DNA of 64,000 bases from Nanobdellota archaeon (GTDB lineage: Archaea > Nanobdellota > Nanobdellia > SCGC-AAA011-G17 > JACPNG01), in assembly GCA_038046345.1 (NCBI GenBank), contig JBBSWJ010000005.1, forward strand, positions 24,784-88,783, written 5' to 3'. The first letter of the stretch is position 1. Every line of letters begins with the position of its first letter. This document shows positions 51,116 to 53,902 of the stretch, one piece after another. The notes under the pieces are model-generated. The model saw only the letters and a program-made list of their open reading frames with translations. It made no database searches and was not told the origin of the DNA. The position numbers were made by a program, and so were the translations under genes.

Positions 51116-53902
51116 TTATAATTCTTTTATACCCTTTCTATCTTTTATTTGTTTTCTTATTTTATCTTGCAATGATTCAGGCAGCTTCTCATACATTTGG
51201 TCTACCACAAAATAGCTACCCCGGCCACCAGTAGCGGATCTTAAGTCGCTGCTTAATCCAAACATTTCACCAACAGGTAGCTTGCATTTAACGGTCATTT
51301 GTACTCCCTCTTGTTGCACTTCTAACAATTGCCCTCTTTTATTTTGTATTAATTTAGATACATCTCCTAAATAATCACTAGGCGCTCCAATATGTAATTC
51401 CTGTACTGGCTCATAAATATATGGTTTTCCTGTTAGTATAGCCTCTCTTATCCCCTCTCTTACAGCGGGGTATACCTGGGCTGGCCCACGATGTATTGCA
51501 TCTTCATGTAATTTCATATCAGTAACTCTTACTTTCATCTTCATTGTTGGTTCTTTTGCAAGTATTCCAGCATCGCAAACCTGTTCAAAACCATCTATTA
51601 CTAATTCTATTACTTCACCTATCTGAACTATACCACGAGTGTCATCAACTAATAAGTTTCCCTTGTATATATCCCTATATTTCTTCGCGTCTTTTAAGAT
51701 AACTCCTTTCTCTTCTAATTTTTTAAATGTATCAACATCCTTTTTTTTAAGCCTGCCATCAGGTATTTCTCCGTCCCTCATTAATTGATAAATCTCATCT
51801 TCTAAAGGTTCAACAATAAAAAAGAATTTATTATGTTTATTTGGGGATTTTCCTTCTTTTTCTTCAGATACCTTGGTTACCGCTTCTCTGTACACAACAA
51901 TAGGCGGGCTTGTCCTTACTTGCAAACCTTTTTCTGTTTTTATCCTATTCTCAATAACTTCTAAATGTAGTTCGCCCATTCCAGAAATTAAGTTTTCTCC
52001 TGTCTCCTCATTAATTTCGATTGTTATTGTTGGATCCTCTTTGTTTACTTGCTTTAGTACTTCAACAAGTTTTGGCAAGTCAGCAGGAGATGTTGCTTCA
52101 ATACTTTTTGTAACAACCGGGTCAAATATATGTTTTATTGCTTCAAACGGTTCCATTTCTTCAGATGCAATTGTCTCTCCAGCAAACACATTTTTTAACC
52201 CCACTAAACCTACAATATTACCAGCAACTGCTTTTTCAACGGTTACTCTTTGAGCTCCTTTGTATATCGATACCTGTTGTATTCTAATCTTTCTTTTTGC
52301 ATTGATCATATATGCATCATCGCCCTGTCTTACAGTTCCAGAGAATAATCTACCAGCCGTTACTTCTCCTGCATGTTTATCAATAACAATTTTTGTTGCT
52401 ACAAAAGCAGTCGGACCATTAGGATTACAGTTTACTAATGACTTTCCAATTTCAGAATCTAAATCTCCATGCCATATTTTTGGCACTCTGTATTTCTGAG
52501 CGTCTACAGGGTTTTTATGGTGTGCTATTACCATCTCGAGGACAACTTCATGCAATGGCGCTTTTTTTGCTATACCCTTCCATTCATCATTTTCATATGC
52601 TTTTATAACATCTTTAAAGCTCAGCCCATTTCTTAGCATATAAGGAGCAGATAACGCCCAATTATGAAATGCAGATCCAAATGCTACACTCCCATCTTTA
52701 ACATGAACTAACCATTTTTCTTTAAATTCTTCTGGGGCTACACTCTGTATGAACTTGTTTATCTCAGTTATTATTTTCACAAATCTTTCTTGCATTGCTT
52801 CAGGTGTTAGTTTTACTTCTTTTATTAAACGATCAACTTTGTTTATGAATAATACTGGCTTGACTCTTTCTCTTAACGCTTGACGCAACACGGTTTCTGT
52901 TTGAGGCATTATACCTTCTACTGCATCACATAATACTATTGCCCCGTCTACAGCTCTCATCGCTCTTGTTACATCTCCTCCAAAGTCTACATGCCCGGGC
53001 GTGTCAATTAGATTTATTAGAAAATCTTTTCCATTAATTACGTGAACCATAGATACATTTGCTGAATCAATTGTGATCCCGCGTTCTTGTTCATCTGCGT
53101 GGAAATCCAAAGCTAATTGTTTTCCAGCTAACTCTTGTGACATCATCCCGGCTCCTGCCAATAAATTATCTGAGAATGTTGTATTATGGATCACCATTCC
53201 CTCAGCAACAAAATTATGATTGTCTGCAACTGTAAAATCGTATACCATATCTTTCTGTGTTATCTCTTTTGAATTAACCTCACAGTACATAATATCTTCA
53301 CTTAATATTTTATTCTCTTGGATTAATATTTGTCCATTATTCTCTATTTTTTCTTTATAACCACTTAATGAGATTGATATTGCATCTTTTTGGTGCGGCC
53401 AACTTTTCATGCAAACTACAAGATCCTTCAATTCTAATTCTCTTGCTTCTTTATAACAAAAGTCACGTGCGAGCCTATCCAAAACTAAATAACGATGTTC
53501 TGGTGTTGTTTCAATTGAGCTGCCATTTTTTAATTTTATTTTTATTAGTTCACCGCCAGTTAATTTCCAAGCAAGGCTGATTAGTTTCTTTTCTATTTTC
53601 CCTGAATCTTTATTTAATGATAATACCTTAACACATTGGCTTGTAACATCATAAACAACATGACCATTCTTTTTTTCAAATAGTTTTCCATTTTTTATGA
53701 TCTTATCAAATAGCTTCTCTGCCTGTATAACTGAGCTATCACCTAAAATAATTCTAGACTCACCAGAAATACATTTCCCATGATATCGTTCTATGAAGGG
53801 TTAACTCGATAGAAAATCGATATGGGCGCATATAGCTATATTTCTGATTTGTTCCGGTTCATTCATTAATTTAACAACTTTTTCTGCTATCTTATCCGCC
53901 AT
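51116..53902 (-). CDS. fusA: translation elongation factor aEF-2, interrupted by a 33-nt BHB intron and a 197-aa mini-intein
   Basis: Exon 1 (53902..53816) encodes [29 protein letters not shown]. Exon 2 (53782..51116) starts HGK, continues through the intein, then [12 protein letters not shown]...DTPGHVDF...NKVDRL...HEDAIHRGPAQ. The lengths are 87 and 2667 nt and both are in frame. The predicted mature protein is about 720 aa. Confidence 0.85.
53183..53773 (-). mobile_element. mini-intein (197 aa) inserted after the P-loop GK of aEF-2
   Basis: Starts CISGESRIILGD (block A). It has ETTPEHRY (block B, TxxH) and ends VAEGMVIHN, followed by the +1 Thr of the extein (TTFSDN). Confidence 0.8.
53783..53815 (-). 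other. 33-nt BHB intron within the aEF-2 coding sequence (contains an in-frame TAA)
   Basis: RNA 53826->53777: CCCAU-AUCG-AUU-UUCUAU-CGAGUUAACCCUUC-AUAGAA-CGAU-AUC-AUGGG. All three helices are perfectly Watson-Crick, with two 3-nt bulges separated by 4 bp. Excision restores AHID|HGK. Confidence 0.75.

What the first reader, a model, noticed from the sequence alone, without database searches (positions are those of the whole stretch)
53777..53826. A textbook bulge-helix-bulge intron interrupts the P-loop codons of the aEF-2 protein-coding gene
Seen directly on the minus strand. A good ATG at 53902 opens [29 protein letters not shown]. Then come 33 nt that carry an in-frame TAA. Then HGK and the rest of EF-2 continue in the same frame.

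The surrounding 50 nt in RNA sense parse as CCCAU / AUCG / AUU / UUCUAU / CGAGUUAACCCUUC / AUAGAA / CGAU / AUC / AUGGG.
- outer helix: CCCAU:AUGGG
- central helix (4 bp): AUCG:CGAU
- two 3-nt bulges on opposite strands
- inner helix (6 bp): UUCUAU:AUAGAA
- loop: 14 nt

This is the canonical hBHBh' substrate of the archaeal tRNA-splicing endonuclease. Cutting after the second nucleotide of each bulge removes exactly 53783..53815 and regenerates the universal GTPase motif AHIDHGK.

To my knowledge, BHB introns in archaeal protein-coding genes are established essentially only for cbf5 in Crenarchaeota. One in an essential translation factor would be new. It would also make expression of EF-2 dependent on the tRNA splicing machinery. 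Standard gene callers will report this gene as 5'-truncated or as a pseudogene; the supplied ORF track starts it at an internal TTG at 53482.
Basis: partly seen in the sequence, partly recalled or inferred. Interest (0 to 1): 0.92.

Follow-up and report, generated by a model that had tools for sequence, protein, structure and literature searches.

The report
tRNA-type intron inside archaeal EF-2 gene
The gene for the essential translation factor EF-2 of this tiny groundwater archaeon is interrupted, in the codons of its GTP-binding loop, by a 33-base intron of the kind normally found in tRNAs. Related archaea carry the same kind of intron there, so this looks like only the second protein-coding gene in Archaea known to need tRNA-style RNA splicing.

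Summary
On the minus strand, ATG 53902 opens 29 EF-2 codons ending AHID. Then come 33 nt (53815..53783) with an in-frame TAA, and then HGK.

The RNA folds into a 5 bp / 3-nt bulge / 4 bp / 3-nt bulge / 6 bp motif. Cutting after the second base of each bulge restores AHIDHGK.

A motif of this quality alone is not rarer than chance in this AT-rich window: 5 observed against 1-7 in shuffles. The weight comes from context and comparison.

- 16 further distinct EF-2 loci of DPANN archaea (Woesearchaeota/Nanoarchaeia MAGs) carry a 30-42 nt insert in the same P-loop codons: 12 at the same site, 4 at positions -6, -4 and +8.
- All have the same bulge-helix geometry but unrelated inner-helix sequences (covariation 0.54 against 0.13 in shuffles).
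- Nine of the 17 lengths are not multiples of 3, and all 17 carry an in-frame stop.
- Both tRNA genes in the window also carry such introns.

No RNA data exist and no endonuclease gene was found in the window. The searched literature reports such introns in mRNAs only for cbf5 and one Haloferax 5' UTR.

Verdict: supported; a new member of a known kind.

The parts
53927..53933 (-). TATA-like element TTAAAAA, about 28 nt upstream of ATG 53902. This spacing implies a leaderless mRNA that starts at or near that ATG.
   Evidence: Read directly from the sequence. The spacing argument rests on general knowledge of archaeal promoters and is an inference. The orthologues L001, L002 and L010 instead have GGAGG or AAGGAG 8-13 nt upstream of the equivalent ATG.
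53816..53902 (-). 5' exon of aEF-2: 29 codons, [29 protein letters not shown], ending in the first half of the P-loop.
   Evidence: It aligns with the N-termini of uninterrupted orthologues such as L012, [34 protein letters not shown].
53777..53826 (-). Complete hBHBh' motif: outer helix CCCAU:AUGGG, central helix AUCG:CGAU, bulges AU|U and AU|C, inner helix UUCUAU:AUAGAA, 14-nt loop.
53783..53815 (-). 33-nt BHB intron UUUCUAUCGAGUUAACCCUUCAUAGAACGAUAU, with an in-frame UAA at 53803..53801. The junction can be shifted by up to 2 nt (AU repeat) without changing the product.
   Evidence: Homologous introns are described.
53774..53782 (-). First 9 nt of the 3' exon: CAU GGG AAA = HGK, the second half of the P-loop and the end of the N-extein.
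53183..53773 (-). 197-aa mini-intein with no homing-endonuclease domain. It runs from Cys1 (CISGES) to ...VIHN and is followed by Thr+1. It sits between GK and TT of the P-loop.
   Evidence: boundaries. (PF14890 Intein_splicing, 7.3e-24, 84.8 bits). Many orthologues carry mini or LAGLIDADG-containing inteins at the same site.
51116..53182 (-). C-extein of aEF-2 (TTFSDNLL...KGIKEL plus the stop codon). Together with residues 1-32 it gives a 720-aa EF-2.
   Evidence: One search shows the full GTP_EFTU/D2/III/IV/C domain set, with GTP_EFTU matched from profile position 1 at residue 17.

Best explanation
The aEF-2 gene of this DPANN archaeon is a split-by-intron gene. NCBI labels the organism a Nanoarchaeota/Woesearchaeota-type MAG; it comes from Hainich groundwater.

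Proposed pathway:
1. The primary transcript starts at or near ATG 53902.
2. In the RNA, exon bases AUCG (Ile codon plus the G of the Asp codon) pair with the intron's 3'-terminal CGAU. They are flanked by two 3-nt bulges, an exon-exon outer helix (CCCAU:AUGGG) and an intron hairpin. This is the substrate shape of the archaeal tRNA-splicing endonuclease EndA.
3. EndA cuts after the second base of each bulge.
4. The RtcB-type ligase joins GAU to CAU, and the 33-nt intron is released, probably as a circle.
5. The mature mRNA encodes a 917-aa precursor. Its P-loop is still interrupted, three codons further on, by a 197-aa mini-intein, which must then remove itself by protein splicing to give a 720-aa EF-2.
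6. Ribosomes that translate unspliced RNA stop at the in-frame UAA after 33 residues.

Shown computationally: the anatomy, the frame restoration, the conservation and covariation across 17 loci, and the presence of two other BHB introns (in tRNAs) in the same window.

Inferred: the enzymes, the actual splicing, the circular intron and the purpose of the stop codon.
For: 1. Removal of 53783..53815 restores AHIDHGK and a complete EF-2 domain set.
2. Canonical 3-4-3 geometry with both flanking helices.
3. The same site is interrupted in 12 other distinct loci (L001, L002, L006, L009, L010, L035, L036, L039, L051, L096, L098, L107), with lengths of 30-42 nt. Nearby sites are interrupted in L028 (-6), L054 and L067 (-4) and L018 (+8). 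For 15 of the 17 an automatic solver finds exactly one BHB whose canonical cuts give RNIxxxAHIDHGK; the other two were parsed by hand.
4. Covariation on 13 site-0 introns: 85% of cells paired against 65.5% in shuffles (0/500 shuffles as high); score 0.541 against 0.134 in shuffles and 0.07-0.13 for slid partners; 6 of 7 inner-helix pairs have double changes; the Ile codon base paired with the intron base is CG in 9 and UA in 4, never unpaired. RNAalifold independently recovers the central helix, bulge and inner helix.
5. Nine of the 17 lengths are not multiples of 3. All 17 have an in-frame stop, against 7 and 6 of 17 in the other two frames.
6. Both tRNA genes in the window carry BHB introns, so the organism must have the machinery: tRNA-Ser(GGA) has 12 nt at 37/38 and tRNA-Ala(UGC) has 35 nt at 59/60 in the T-loop. 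In the latter the outermost central pair is mismatched, as in many of the EF-2 introns.
7. An independent assembly is identical.
8. A Shine-Dalgarno sequence or TATA element lies upstream of the 5'-exon ATG.
9. No other protein more than 78% identical to this EF-2 exists among 5.8 billion proteins, so no intact second allele is on record.
Against: - There is no transcript evidence. No protein fragment spanning the spliced junction is in the protein collection, although that collection is almost entirely DNA-derived.
- No endA, rtcB or archease gene was found in the 64-kb window. Only 20 small ORFs and RtcB sequence motifs were screened.
- A BHB of this quality occurs by chance a few times per window.
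- The outer helix is weak or absent in many orthologues. The conserved core is the relaxed HBh' form, which homotetrameric EndA enzymes are classically said not to cut (PMC5829648).
- The rest of the genome was not available, so a second EF-2 gene cannot be excluded.
Confidence: 0.88

Rival explanations
1. Decaying pseudogene: the 33 nt are a random insertion or mobile-element scar that inactivated EF-2, and a functional copy lies elsewhere in the genome.
For: The insert carries a stop codon. Gene callers report a truncated gene (NCBI protein of 892 aa). The whole genome could not be inspected.
Against: Both exons and the intein are otherwise intact and conserved, 70-78% identical to intact orthologues over 720 aa with no other lesion. 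The same kind of insert recurs in 16 other distinct loci with compensatory changes that preserve an RNA structure. No second copy is on record.
Confidence: 0.03
2. Translational bypassing or recoding: ribosomes hop over the 33 nt, as in phage T4 gene 60, so that no RNA splicing is needed.
For: A stop codon follows the take-off region and a hairpin is present, as in gene 60.
Against: The only matching GAU landing codon would resume translation at AUC AUG GGA (I-M-G), not HGK (read directly from the sequence). The orthologues have no matching take-off and landing codons, and their lengths and positions vary. The conserved feature is the BHB geometry, with covariation between exon and intron bases.
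Confidence: 0.02
3. Two separate polypeptides, or an internal start: the 33-aa N-terminal peptide and a protein starting after the insert are made independently. The public annotation, for example, starts at ATA inside the insert or at TTG 53482.
For: NCBI annotates MERYHGKC... (892 aa) and the ORF track starts at TTG 53482.
Against: Either start would delete the AHID half of the P-loop, and the TTG start would also delete the N-terminal half of the intein, so neither GTP binding nor protein splicing could work. No start signal is conserved after the insert in the orthologues. Shine-Dalgarno or TATA elements sit upstream of the 5' exon instead.
Confidence: 0.02
4. Assembly or sequencing artefact.
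For: The source is a metagenome assembly.
Against: An independent assembly from another sample has the identical insert. Related inserts occur in many unrelated assemblies from NCBI, ENA and JGI.
Confidence: 0.005

Closest known systems
BHB intron in the cbf5 (pseudouridine synthase) pre-mRNA of Crenarchaeota (Watanabe 2002; Yoshinari 2006; Yokobori 2009, PMC2738675)
   Same: It is a short EndA-type bulge-helix-bulge intron inside the coding region of an archaeal protein gene. It has a patchy gain-and-loss distribution among relatives. It occurs in lineages whose tRNA genes also carry introns at non-canonical positions.
   Different: The host gene is different (EF-2, P-loop codons) and so is the superphylum (DPANN rather than Crenarchaeota). 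At least four insertion positions lie within 15 nt. Some copies co-occur with an intein 9 nt away. It has not been shown experimentally.
BHB intron in the 5' UTR of Haloferax volcanii HVO_1309 mRNA (PMC7714728)
   Same: It is an mRNA substrate of the tRNA-splicing endonuclease outside tRNA and rRNA.
   Different: That intron lies in an untranslated region and does not interrupt codons. It was verified in vivo and in vitro.
Non-canonical tRNA introns of Thermoproteales, ARMAN and other DPANN archaea (PMC5829648, PMC4090602, PMC3239211)
   Same: The motif is the same, including relaxed HBh' forms. The exon supplies the 5' strand of the central helix. Similar intron cores occur at different positions, which is reminiscent of intron transposition. 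The window's own tRNA-Ala has such an intron at 59/60.
   Different: The substrate here is an mRNA, so splicing must preserve a reading frame. These introns also always carry an in-frame stop.
HAC1/XBP1 unconventional mRNA splicing by IRE1 plus tRNA ligase (eukaryotes)
   Same: Both are spliceosome-independent: a protein endonuclease cuts at two stem-loop sites in a coding region and a tRNA-type ligase (RtcB in metazoa) joins the exons.
   Different: The endonuclease and its recognition motif are different. That system is a regulated stress response that changes the C-terminus of the protein, not a constitutive repair of an essential motif.
P-loop inteins (for example in RadA, RFC and aIF2; PMC4760082), and the EF-2 proteins that NCBI names 'intein-containing elongation factor EF-2'
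   Same: The 197-aa element after HGK is a standard Hint-domain mini-intein (Cys1, HN, Thr+1) at the classic GK|T position of a P-loop.
   Different: Nothing unusual in itself. What is unusual is that it sits 9 nt from an RNA intron.

Membership tests
Archaeal EndA-dependent bulge-helix-bulge intron | Two 3-nt bulges on opposite strands, separated by a 4-bp helix. | tested here: met
   AUCG:CGAU with bulges AUU and AUC. The minimum-energy fold prefers a 5-bp register with the same number of pairs.
Archaeal EndA-dependent bulge-helix-bulge intron | Flanking helices h and h' (the strict hBHBh' form). | tested here: met
   Window: outer helix 5 bp, inner helix 6 bp. In many orthologues the outer helix is 0-1 bp, so those are the relaxed HBh' form.
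Archaeal EndA-dependent bulge-helix-bulge intron | Cuts after the second base of each bulge give a functional mature RNA. | tested here: met
   The cuts restore AHIDHGK and the full EF-2 frame. The same rule gives the 7-nt anticodon loop of the window's tRNA-Ser and the 7-nt T-loop of its tRNA-Ala.
Archaeal EndA-dependent bulge-helix-bulge intron | The structure, not the sequence, is conserved among homologues (compensatory changes). | tested here: met
   Covariation score 0.541 against 0.134 in shuffles; 41 cells with double changes against 12.4.
Archaeal EndA-dependent bulge-helix-bulge intron | The splicing endonuclease (EndA) and RNA ligase (RtcB) are encoded in the same genome. | tested here: inconclusive
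   Neither was found in the 64-kb window, and the rest of the genome was unavailable. Their presence is implied by the two intron-containing tRNA genes in the window.
Archaeal EndA-dependent bulge-helix-bulge intron | Spliced RNA or an excised (circular) intron is detected, or cleavage is shown in vitro. | not testable with these tools
   No transcriptome data. No junction-spanning protein fragment is in the protein collection.
cbf5 pre-mRNA intron of Crenarchaeota | The host gene is cbf5 and the lineage is Crenarchaeota. | tested here: not met
   The host gene is aEF-2. Relatives are named Woesearchaeota, Nanoarchaeota or Pacearchaeota.
Intein (Hint domain) | An N-terminal Cys/Ser, a C-terminal His-Asn followed by Cys/Ser/Thr, and a match to the Hint-domain profile. 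| tested here: met
   C1...HN|T, PF14890 at 84.8 bits (curated cut-off 35.8).
Group I / group II self-splicing introns | A ribozyme core of a few hundred nucleotides. | tested here: not met
   The insert is only 33 nt (30-42 nt in relatives). The only Rfam families matched in the window are rRNA and tRNA.

The most novel reading that the evidence does not exclude
BHB introns in these DPANN archaea may be mobile, or at least repeatedly re-inserted, and the P-loop-coding stretch of EF-2 may be a hot spot for them. That stretch is also the most conserved DNA of the gene and the homing site of its intein.

Support for this reading:
- Four insertion positions lie within 15 nt.
- The distribution among close relatives is patchy.
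- Sister genomes L051 and L054 carry visibly homologous intron cores (AGUUUAAGUU...CUUAACU) at sites 4 nt apart, with the exon-pairing segment rewritten.

The introns may be kept for one of two reasons. They may change the DNA target of the intein homing endonuclease without changing the protein. Or they may tie EF-2 output to the capacity of the tRNA-splicing machinery, with the universal in-frame stop codon as a safeguard against translation of unspliced RNA.
Probability: 0.2. Interest if true: 0.9.

Novelty: new member of a known kind. Interest (0 to 1): 0.78.

Why it matters
- **A second case after two decades.** In the literature searched here, cbf5 has been the only archaeal protein-coding region known to contain an EndA-type intron. 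A second host gene, in a different superphylum and recurrent in many lineages, suggests that mRNA splicing by the tRNA machinery is a broader archaeal capability. That bears on ideas about the origin of introns and of eukaryotic non-spliceosomal mRNA splicing.
- **New dependencies for an essential gene.** Production of an essential translation factor would depend on RNA splicing and then on protein splicing, within the same nine codons.
- **Practical consequences.** Public annotation gets these genes wrong. NCBI starts this one at an ATA inside the intron, and others are called 5'-truncated. EF-2 is, to my knowledge, widely used as a phylogenetic and completeness marker, so intron-aware gene calling is needed for DPANN genomes.
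- **Testable material.** The set of 17 natural variants, including relaxed motifs and a 4-nt bulge, gives a ready substrate panel for testing the specificity of DPANN endonucleases.

Tried and rejected
1. A degenerate pattern scan of metagenome contigs for interrupted P-loops was swamped by bacterial EF-G genes, where AHIDAGKTTTTERIL.YTGK mimics the pattern with a 38-nt gap. Only 4 of the 80 loci returned were true hits (L096, L098/L121, L107, L160).
2. A loose BHB scanner over the window gave hundreds of hits. A 'does removal join two ORFs' filter gave 420. Both were uninformative in 34% GC DNA, so I cannot say whether other genes in the window carry such introns.
3. A strict scanner showed that the motif by itself is at chance level.
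4. The search for EndA and RtcB in the window found nothing (RtcB motif regex; Pfam on 20 ORFs of 147-238 aa).
5. A search for a protein fragment spanning the spliced junction, as a hint of cDNA or an intron-less allele, found none. The best hit to the N-terminal query was 56% identical over most of the query; one weak hit (P0146) reached 75% over only 24% of it.
6. ARAGORN found no tRNA in the window because both tRNA genes are interrupted. Rfam found them.
7. Ribosomal bypassing, an internal start and the pseudogene reading were considered and rejected, as set out under the rival explanations.
8. The idea that the intron protects against intein homing got no support from co-occurrence counts. 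Among GTDB representative loci, 1 of 5 with a site-0 intron also has the P-loop intein, against about 6 of roughly 66 without an intron. The numbers are too small to decide either way.
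Full report
**1. The observation**

On the minus strand an ATG at 53902 opens [29 protein letters not shown]. The next 33 nt (53815..53783) read FLSS*PFIERY, with TAA at 53803..53801, and HGK follows in the same frame. Deleting exactly those 33 nt gives ...AHIDHGK....

The mechanical ORF list starts the gene at TTG 53482, giving 788 aa. NCBI's own annotation of this contig (MEK6940431.1, 'MAG: elongation factor EF-2 [Nanoarchaeota archaeon]', 892 aa) starts at an ATA codon inside the insert, MERYHGKC.... An independently assembled 8.8-kb contig from Hainich groundwater (ENA ERZ1292643) is 99.97% identical over 6.85 kb and contains the same insert.

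**2. The fold**

RNAfold of 53826..53777 gives outer helix, bulge, helix, bulge and hairpin at -12.9 kcal/mol (z = -2.67), and the same fold survives in a 131-nt context.

- The minimum-energy fold has 5 bp between the bulges.
It is the only register whose canonical cuts, after base 2 of each bulge, keep the reading frame.
- A scanner demanding the same quality finds 5 such motifs in the window against 1-7 in Markov shuffles.

The structure alone is therefore not evidence. Its exact coincidence with the repair of a universal motif is.

**3.

HGK is followed by CISGES...[18 protein letters not shown]. This is a 197-aa mini-intein (53773..53183) in the classic GK|T position of the P-loop (PF14890, 84.8 bits). 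With both the intron and the intein removed, the 720-aa product has the complete EF-2 domain set, and the GTP_EFTU profile matches from its first position.

**4. Relatives**

The closest proteins are EF-2 of Woesearchaeota, Nanoarchaeota and 'Nanoarchaeia' MAGs, at 60-78% identity. Many carry inteins at the same site. Several are N-terminally truncated as called: P0034, P0036 and P0044 start inside the intein, and P0049 and P0060 start 43 residues in.

Their contigs show a small upstream ORF and an insert at the same AHID|HGK junction:

| Locus | Insert length (nt) |
|---|---|
| L001 | 38 |
| L002-5 | 39 |
| L006-8 | 33 |
| L009 | 33 |
| L010-11 | 42 |

Among 80 EF-2 loci from GTDB species representatives, most are uninterrupted. 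The exceptions are:

- L035 (31 nt), L036 (32), L039 (31), L048 (identical to L001) and L051 (30), which carry an insert at the same junction.
- L054 (33) and L067 (32), with an insert 4 nt upstream, inside the Ile codon.
- L028 (31), with an insert 6 nt upstream.
- L018 (30), with an insert 8 nt downstream, inside the Lys codon next to the intein site.

That is 9 of 78 evaluable loci. A metagenome pattern scan added L096 (37), L098 (30) and L107 (34).

For 15 of the 17 distinct loci an automatic solver finds exactly one BHB whose canonical cuts give RNIxxxAHIDHGK. L001 (one U.U mismatch in the inner helix) and L036 (a Leu codon outside my search pattern) were parsed by hand. L039 needs a 4-nt 3' bulge.

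**5. Covariation**

In a junction-anchored alignment of the 13 same-site introns:

- The inner helices share no sequence but are 91% paired, and 6 of 7 pairs show double changes.
- The third base of the Ile codon pairs with an intron base as C-G in 9 sequences and U-A in 4, and is never unpaired.
- 85.1% of cells are paired, against 65.5 +/- 2.0% in shuffles (0 of 500 as high).
- The covariation score is 0.541, against 0.134 in shuffles and 0.07-0.13 when the partners are slid by 1-3 columns.

RNAalifold independently predicts the central helix, the 3-nt bulge and the inner helix. The outer helix is good in the window but weak or absent in many relatives. The conserved core is therefore the relaxed HBh' form.

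**6. The inserts cannot be translated**

Nine of the 17 lengths are not multiples of three. All 17 carry a stop in the exon frame, against 7 and 6 of 17 in the other two frames. The product of the per-intron null probabilities is about 1e-4 if the introns are treated as independent. This suggests selection for early termination on unspliced RNA, but shared ancestry of a UAAG-like loop motif could contribute.

**7. The machinery**

No endA or rtcB gene was found in the window. However, both tRNA genes in the window are interrupted by BHB introns.

- tRNA-Ser(GGA), 43865..43960 (minus strand), has a 12-nt intron at 37/38 with central helix CUGG:CCAG.
- tRNA-Ala(UGC), in the 16S-23S spacer at 17441..17548 (minus strand), has a 35-nt intron at 59/60 in the T-loop. 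It has UUCG:CGAU, bulges AA|A and UU|U, and a 7-bp inner helix. Its outermost central pair is mismatched, as in many of the EF-2 introns.

The organism must therefore splice such motifs at non-canonical positions. Kaneta et al. (PMC5829648) link DPANN alpha4 endonucleases carrying an extra L3 loop to increased tRNA gene disruption.

**8. Evolution**

In a neighbour-joining tree of the exteins, intron-bearing loci are scattered among intron-less sisters. L051 (same site as the window) and L054 (-4) are sisters. Their intron cores share AGUUUAAGUU...CUUAACU, while the exon-pairing 3' segment differs (CGAG against GUGC).

This points to sliding or re-insertion of one intron. It recalls the intron transposition proposed for Thermoproteales tRNA genes (reviewed in PMC4090602). 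In 16 of the 17 introns the 5' cut follows AU.

**9. Literature**

Searches of the held library found pre-mRNA BHB introns reported only for crenarchaeal cbf5 and the 5' UTR of Haloferax HVO_1309. [quoted passage not shown] A 2025 structural paper (PMC12397907) still cites only the cbf5 papers for pre-mRNA. Papers on DPANN EF-2 (PMC6143161) and on complete Nanobdellota genomes (bioRxiv 2026.05.13.725050) do not mention it. The library is incomplete, so prior description elsewhere cannot be excluded.

**10. Verdict**

It is a new member of a known kind, the EndA-type intron in an mRNA. It has three unusual features: recurrence at four positions in the P-loop codons of an essential GTPase, a universal in-frame stop, and, in this genome and at least four other distinct loci, an intein 9 nt downstream.

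Noticed in passing
window 53183-53773 (-): A 197-aa mini-intein (Cys1 ... His-Asn | Thr+1, no endonuclease domain) lies in the P-loop of EF-2, 9 nt downstream of the intron. Orthologues carry mini or LAGLIDADG-containing inteins at the same site.
   Followed up: yes
window 17441-17548 (-), intron 17455-17489: tRNA-Ala(UGC), in the 16S-23S spacer, has a 35-nt BHB intron at position 59/60 in the T-loop. Rfam reported only a 57-nt partial match and ARAGORN found nothing.
   Followed up: yes
window 43865-43960 (-), intron 43911-43922: tRNA-Ser(GGA) has a very short 12-nt intron at 37/38: central helix CUGG:CCAG, no inner helix. It also has a long variable arm.
   Followed up: partly
L051 4088-4117 and L054 735-767: Sister EF-2 genes carry introns with homologous cores (AGUUUAAGUU...CUUAACU) at positions 4 nt apart. 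The intron segment that pairs with the exon is rewritten (CGAG against GUGC). This suggests intron sliding or re-insertion.
   Followed up: partly
L018 4090-4119: A 30-nt BHB intron lies inside the Lys codon of HGK (GGU AA|A; central helix UGGU:ACCA). This is 1 nt from where the intein is inserted in other genomes.
   Followed up: partly
all 17 intron loci (window, L001, L002, L006, L009, L010, L018, L028, L035, L036, L039, L051, L054, L067, L096, L098, L107): Every intron has a stop codon in the upstream exon frame, mostly UAA within the first 5 codons. The 5' cut follows AU in 16 of the 17.
   Followed up: partly
window 53787-53798 (-) / NCBI protein MEK6940431.1: The public annotation starts this EF-2 at an ATA codon inside the intron (MERYHGKC..., 892 aa), which loses 29 real residues. 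Relatives are annotated as truncated genes plus a 32-39-aa orphan ORF.
   Followed up: yes
L012, L026, L037, L044, L046, L049, L064, L074 and others: Many EF-2 genes with an uninterrupted P-loop still have tblastn matches that are 450-1050 nt longer than 2.16 kb. This implies further inteins at one or more other sites in EF-2 in this clade.
   Followed up: no
window 17606-19140 (-): The 16S rRNA match spans 1535 nt against a 1478-position model, so it may contain small insertions. The BHB processing stems around the rRNAs were not examined.
   Followed up: no
window 38979-40490 and 40491-42137 (+): Two long ORFs (503 and 548 aa) abut in the same frame, with the stop codon followed directly by ATG. 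By analogy with L002 they are probably the PheRS alpha and beta subunits.
   Followed up: no
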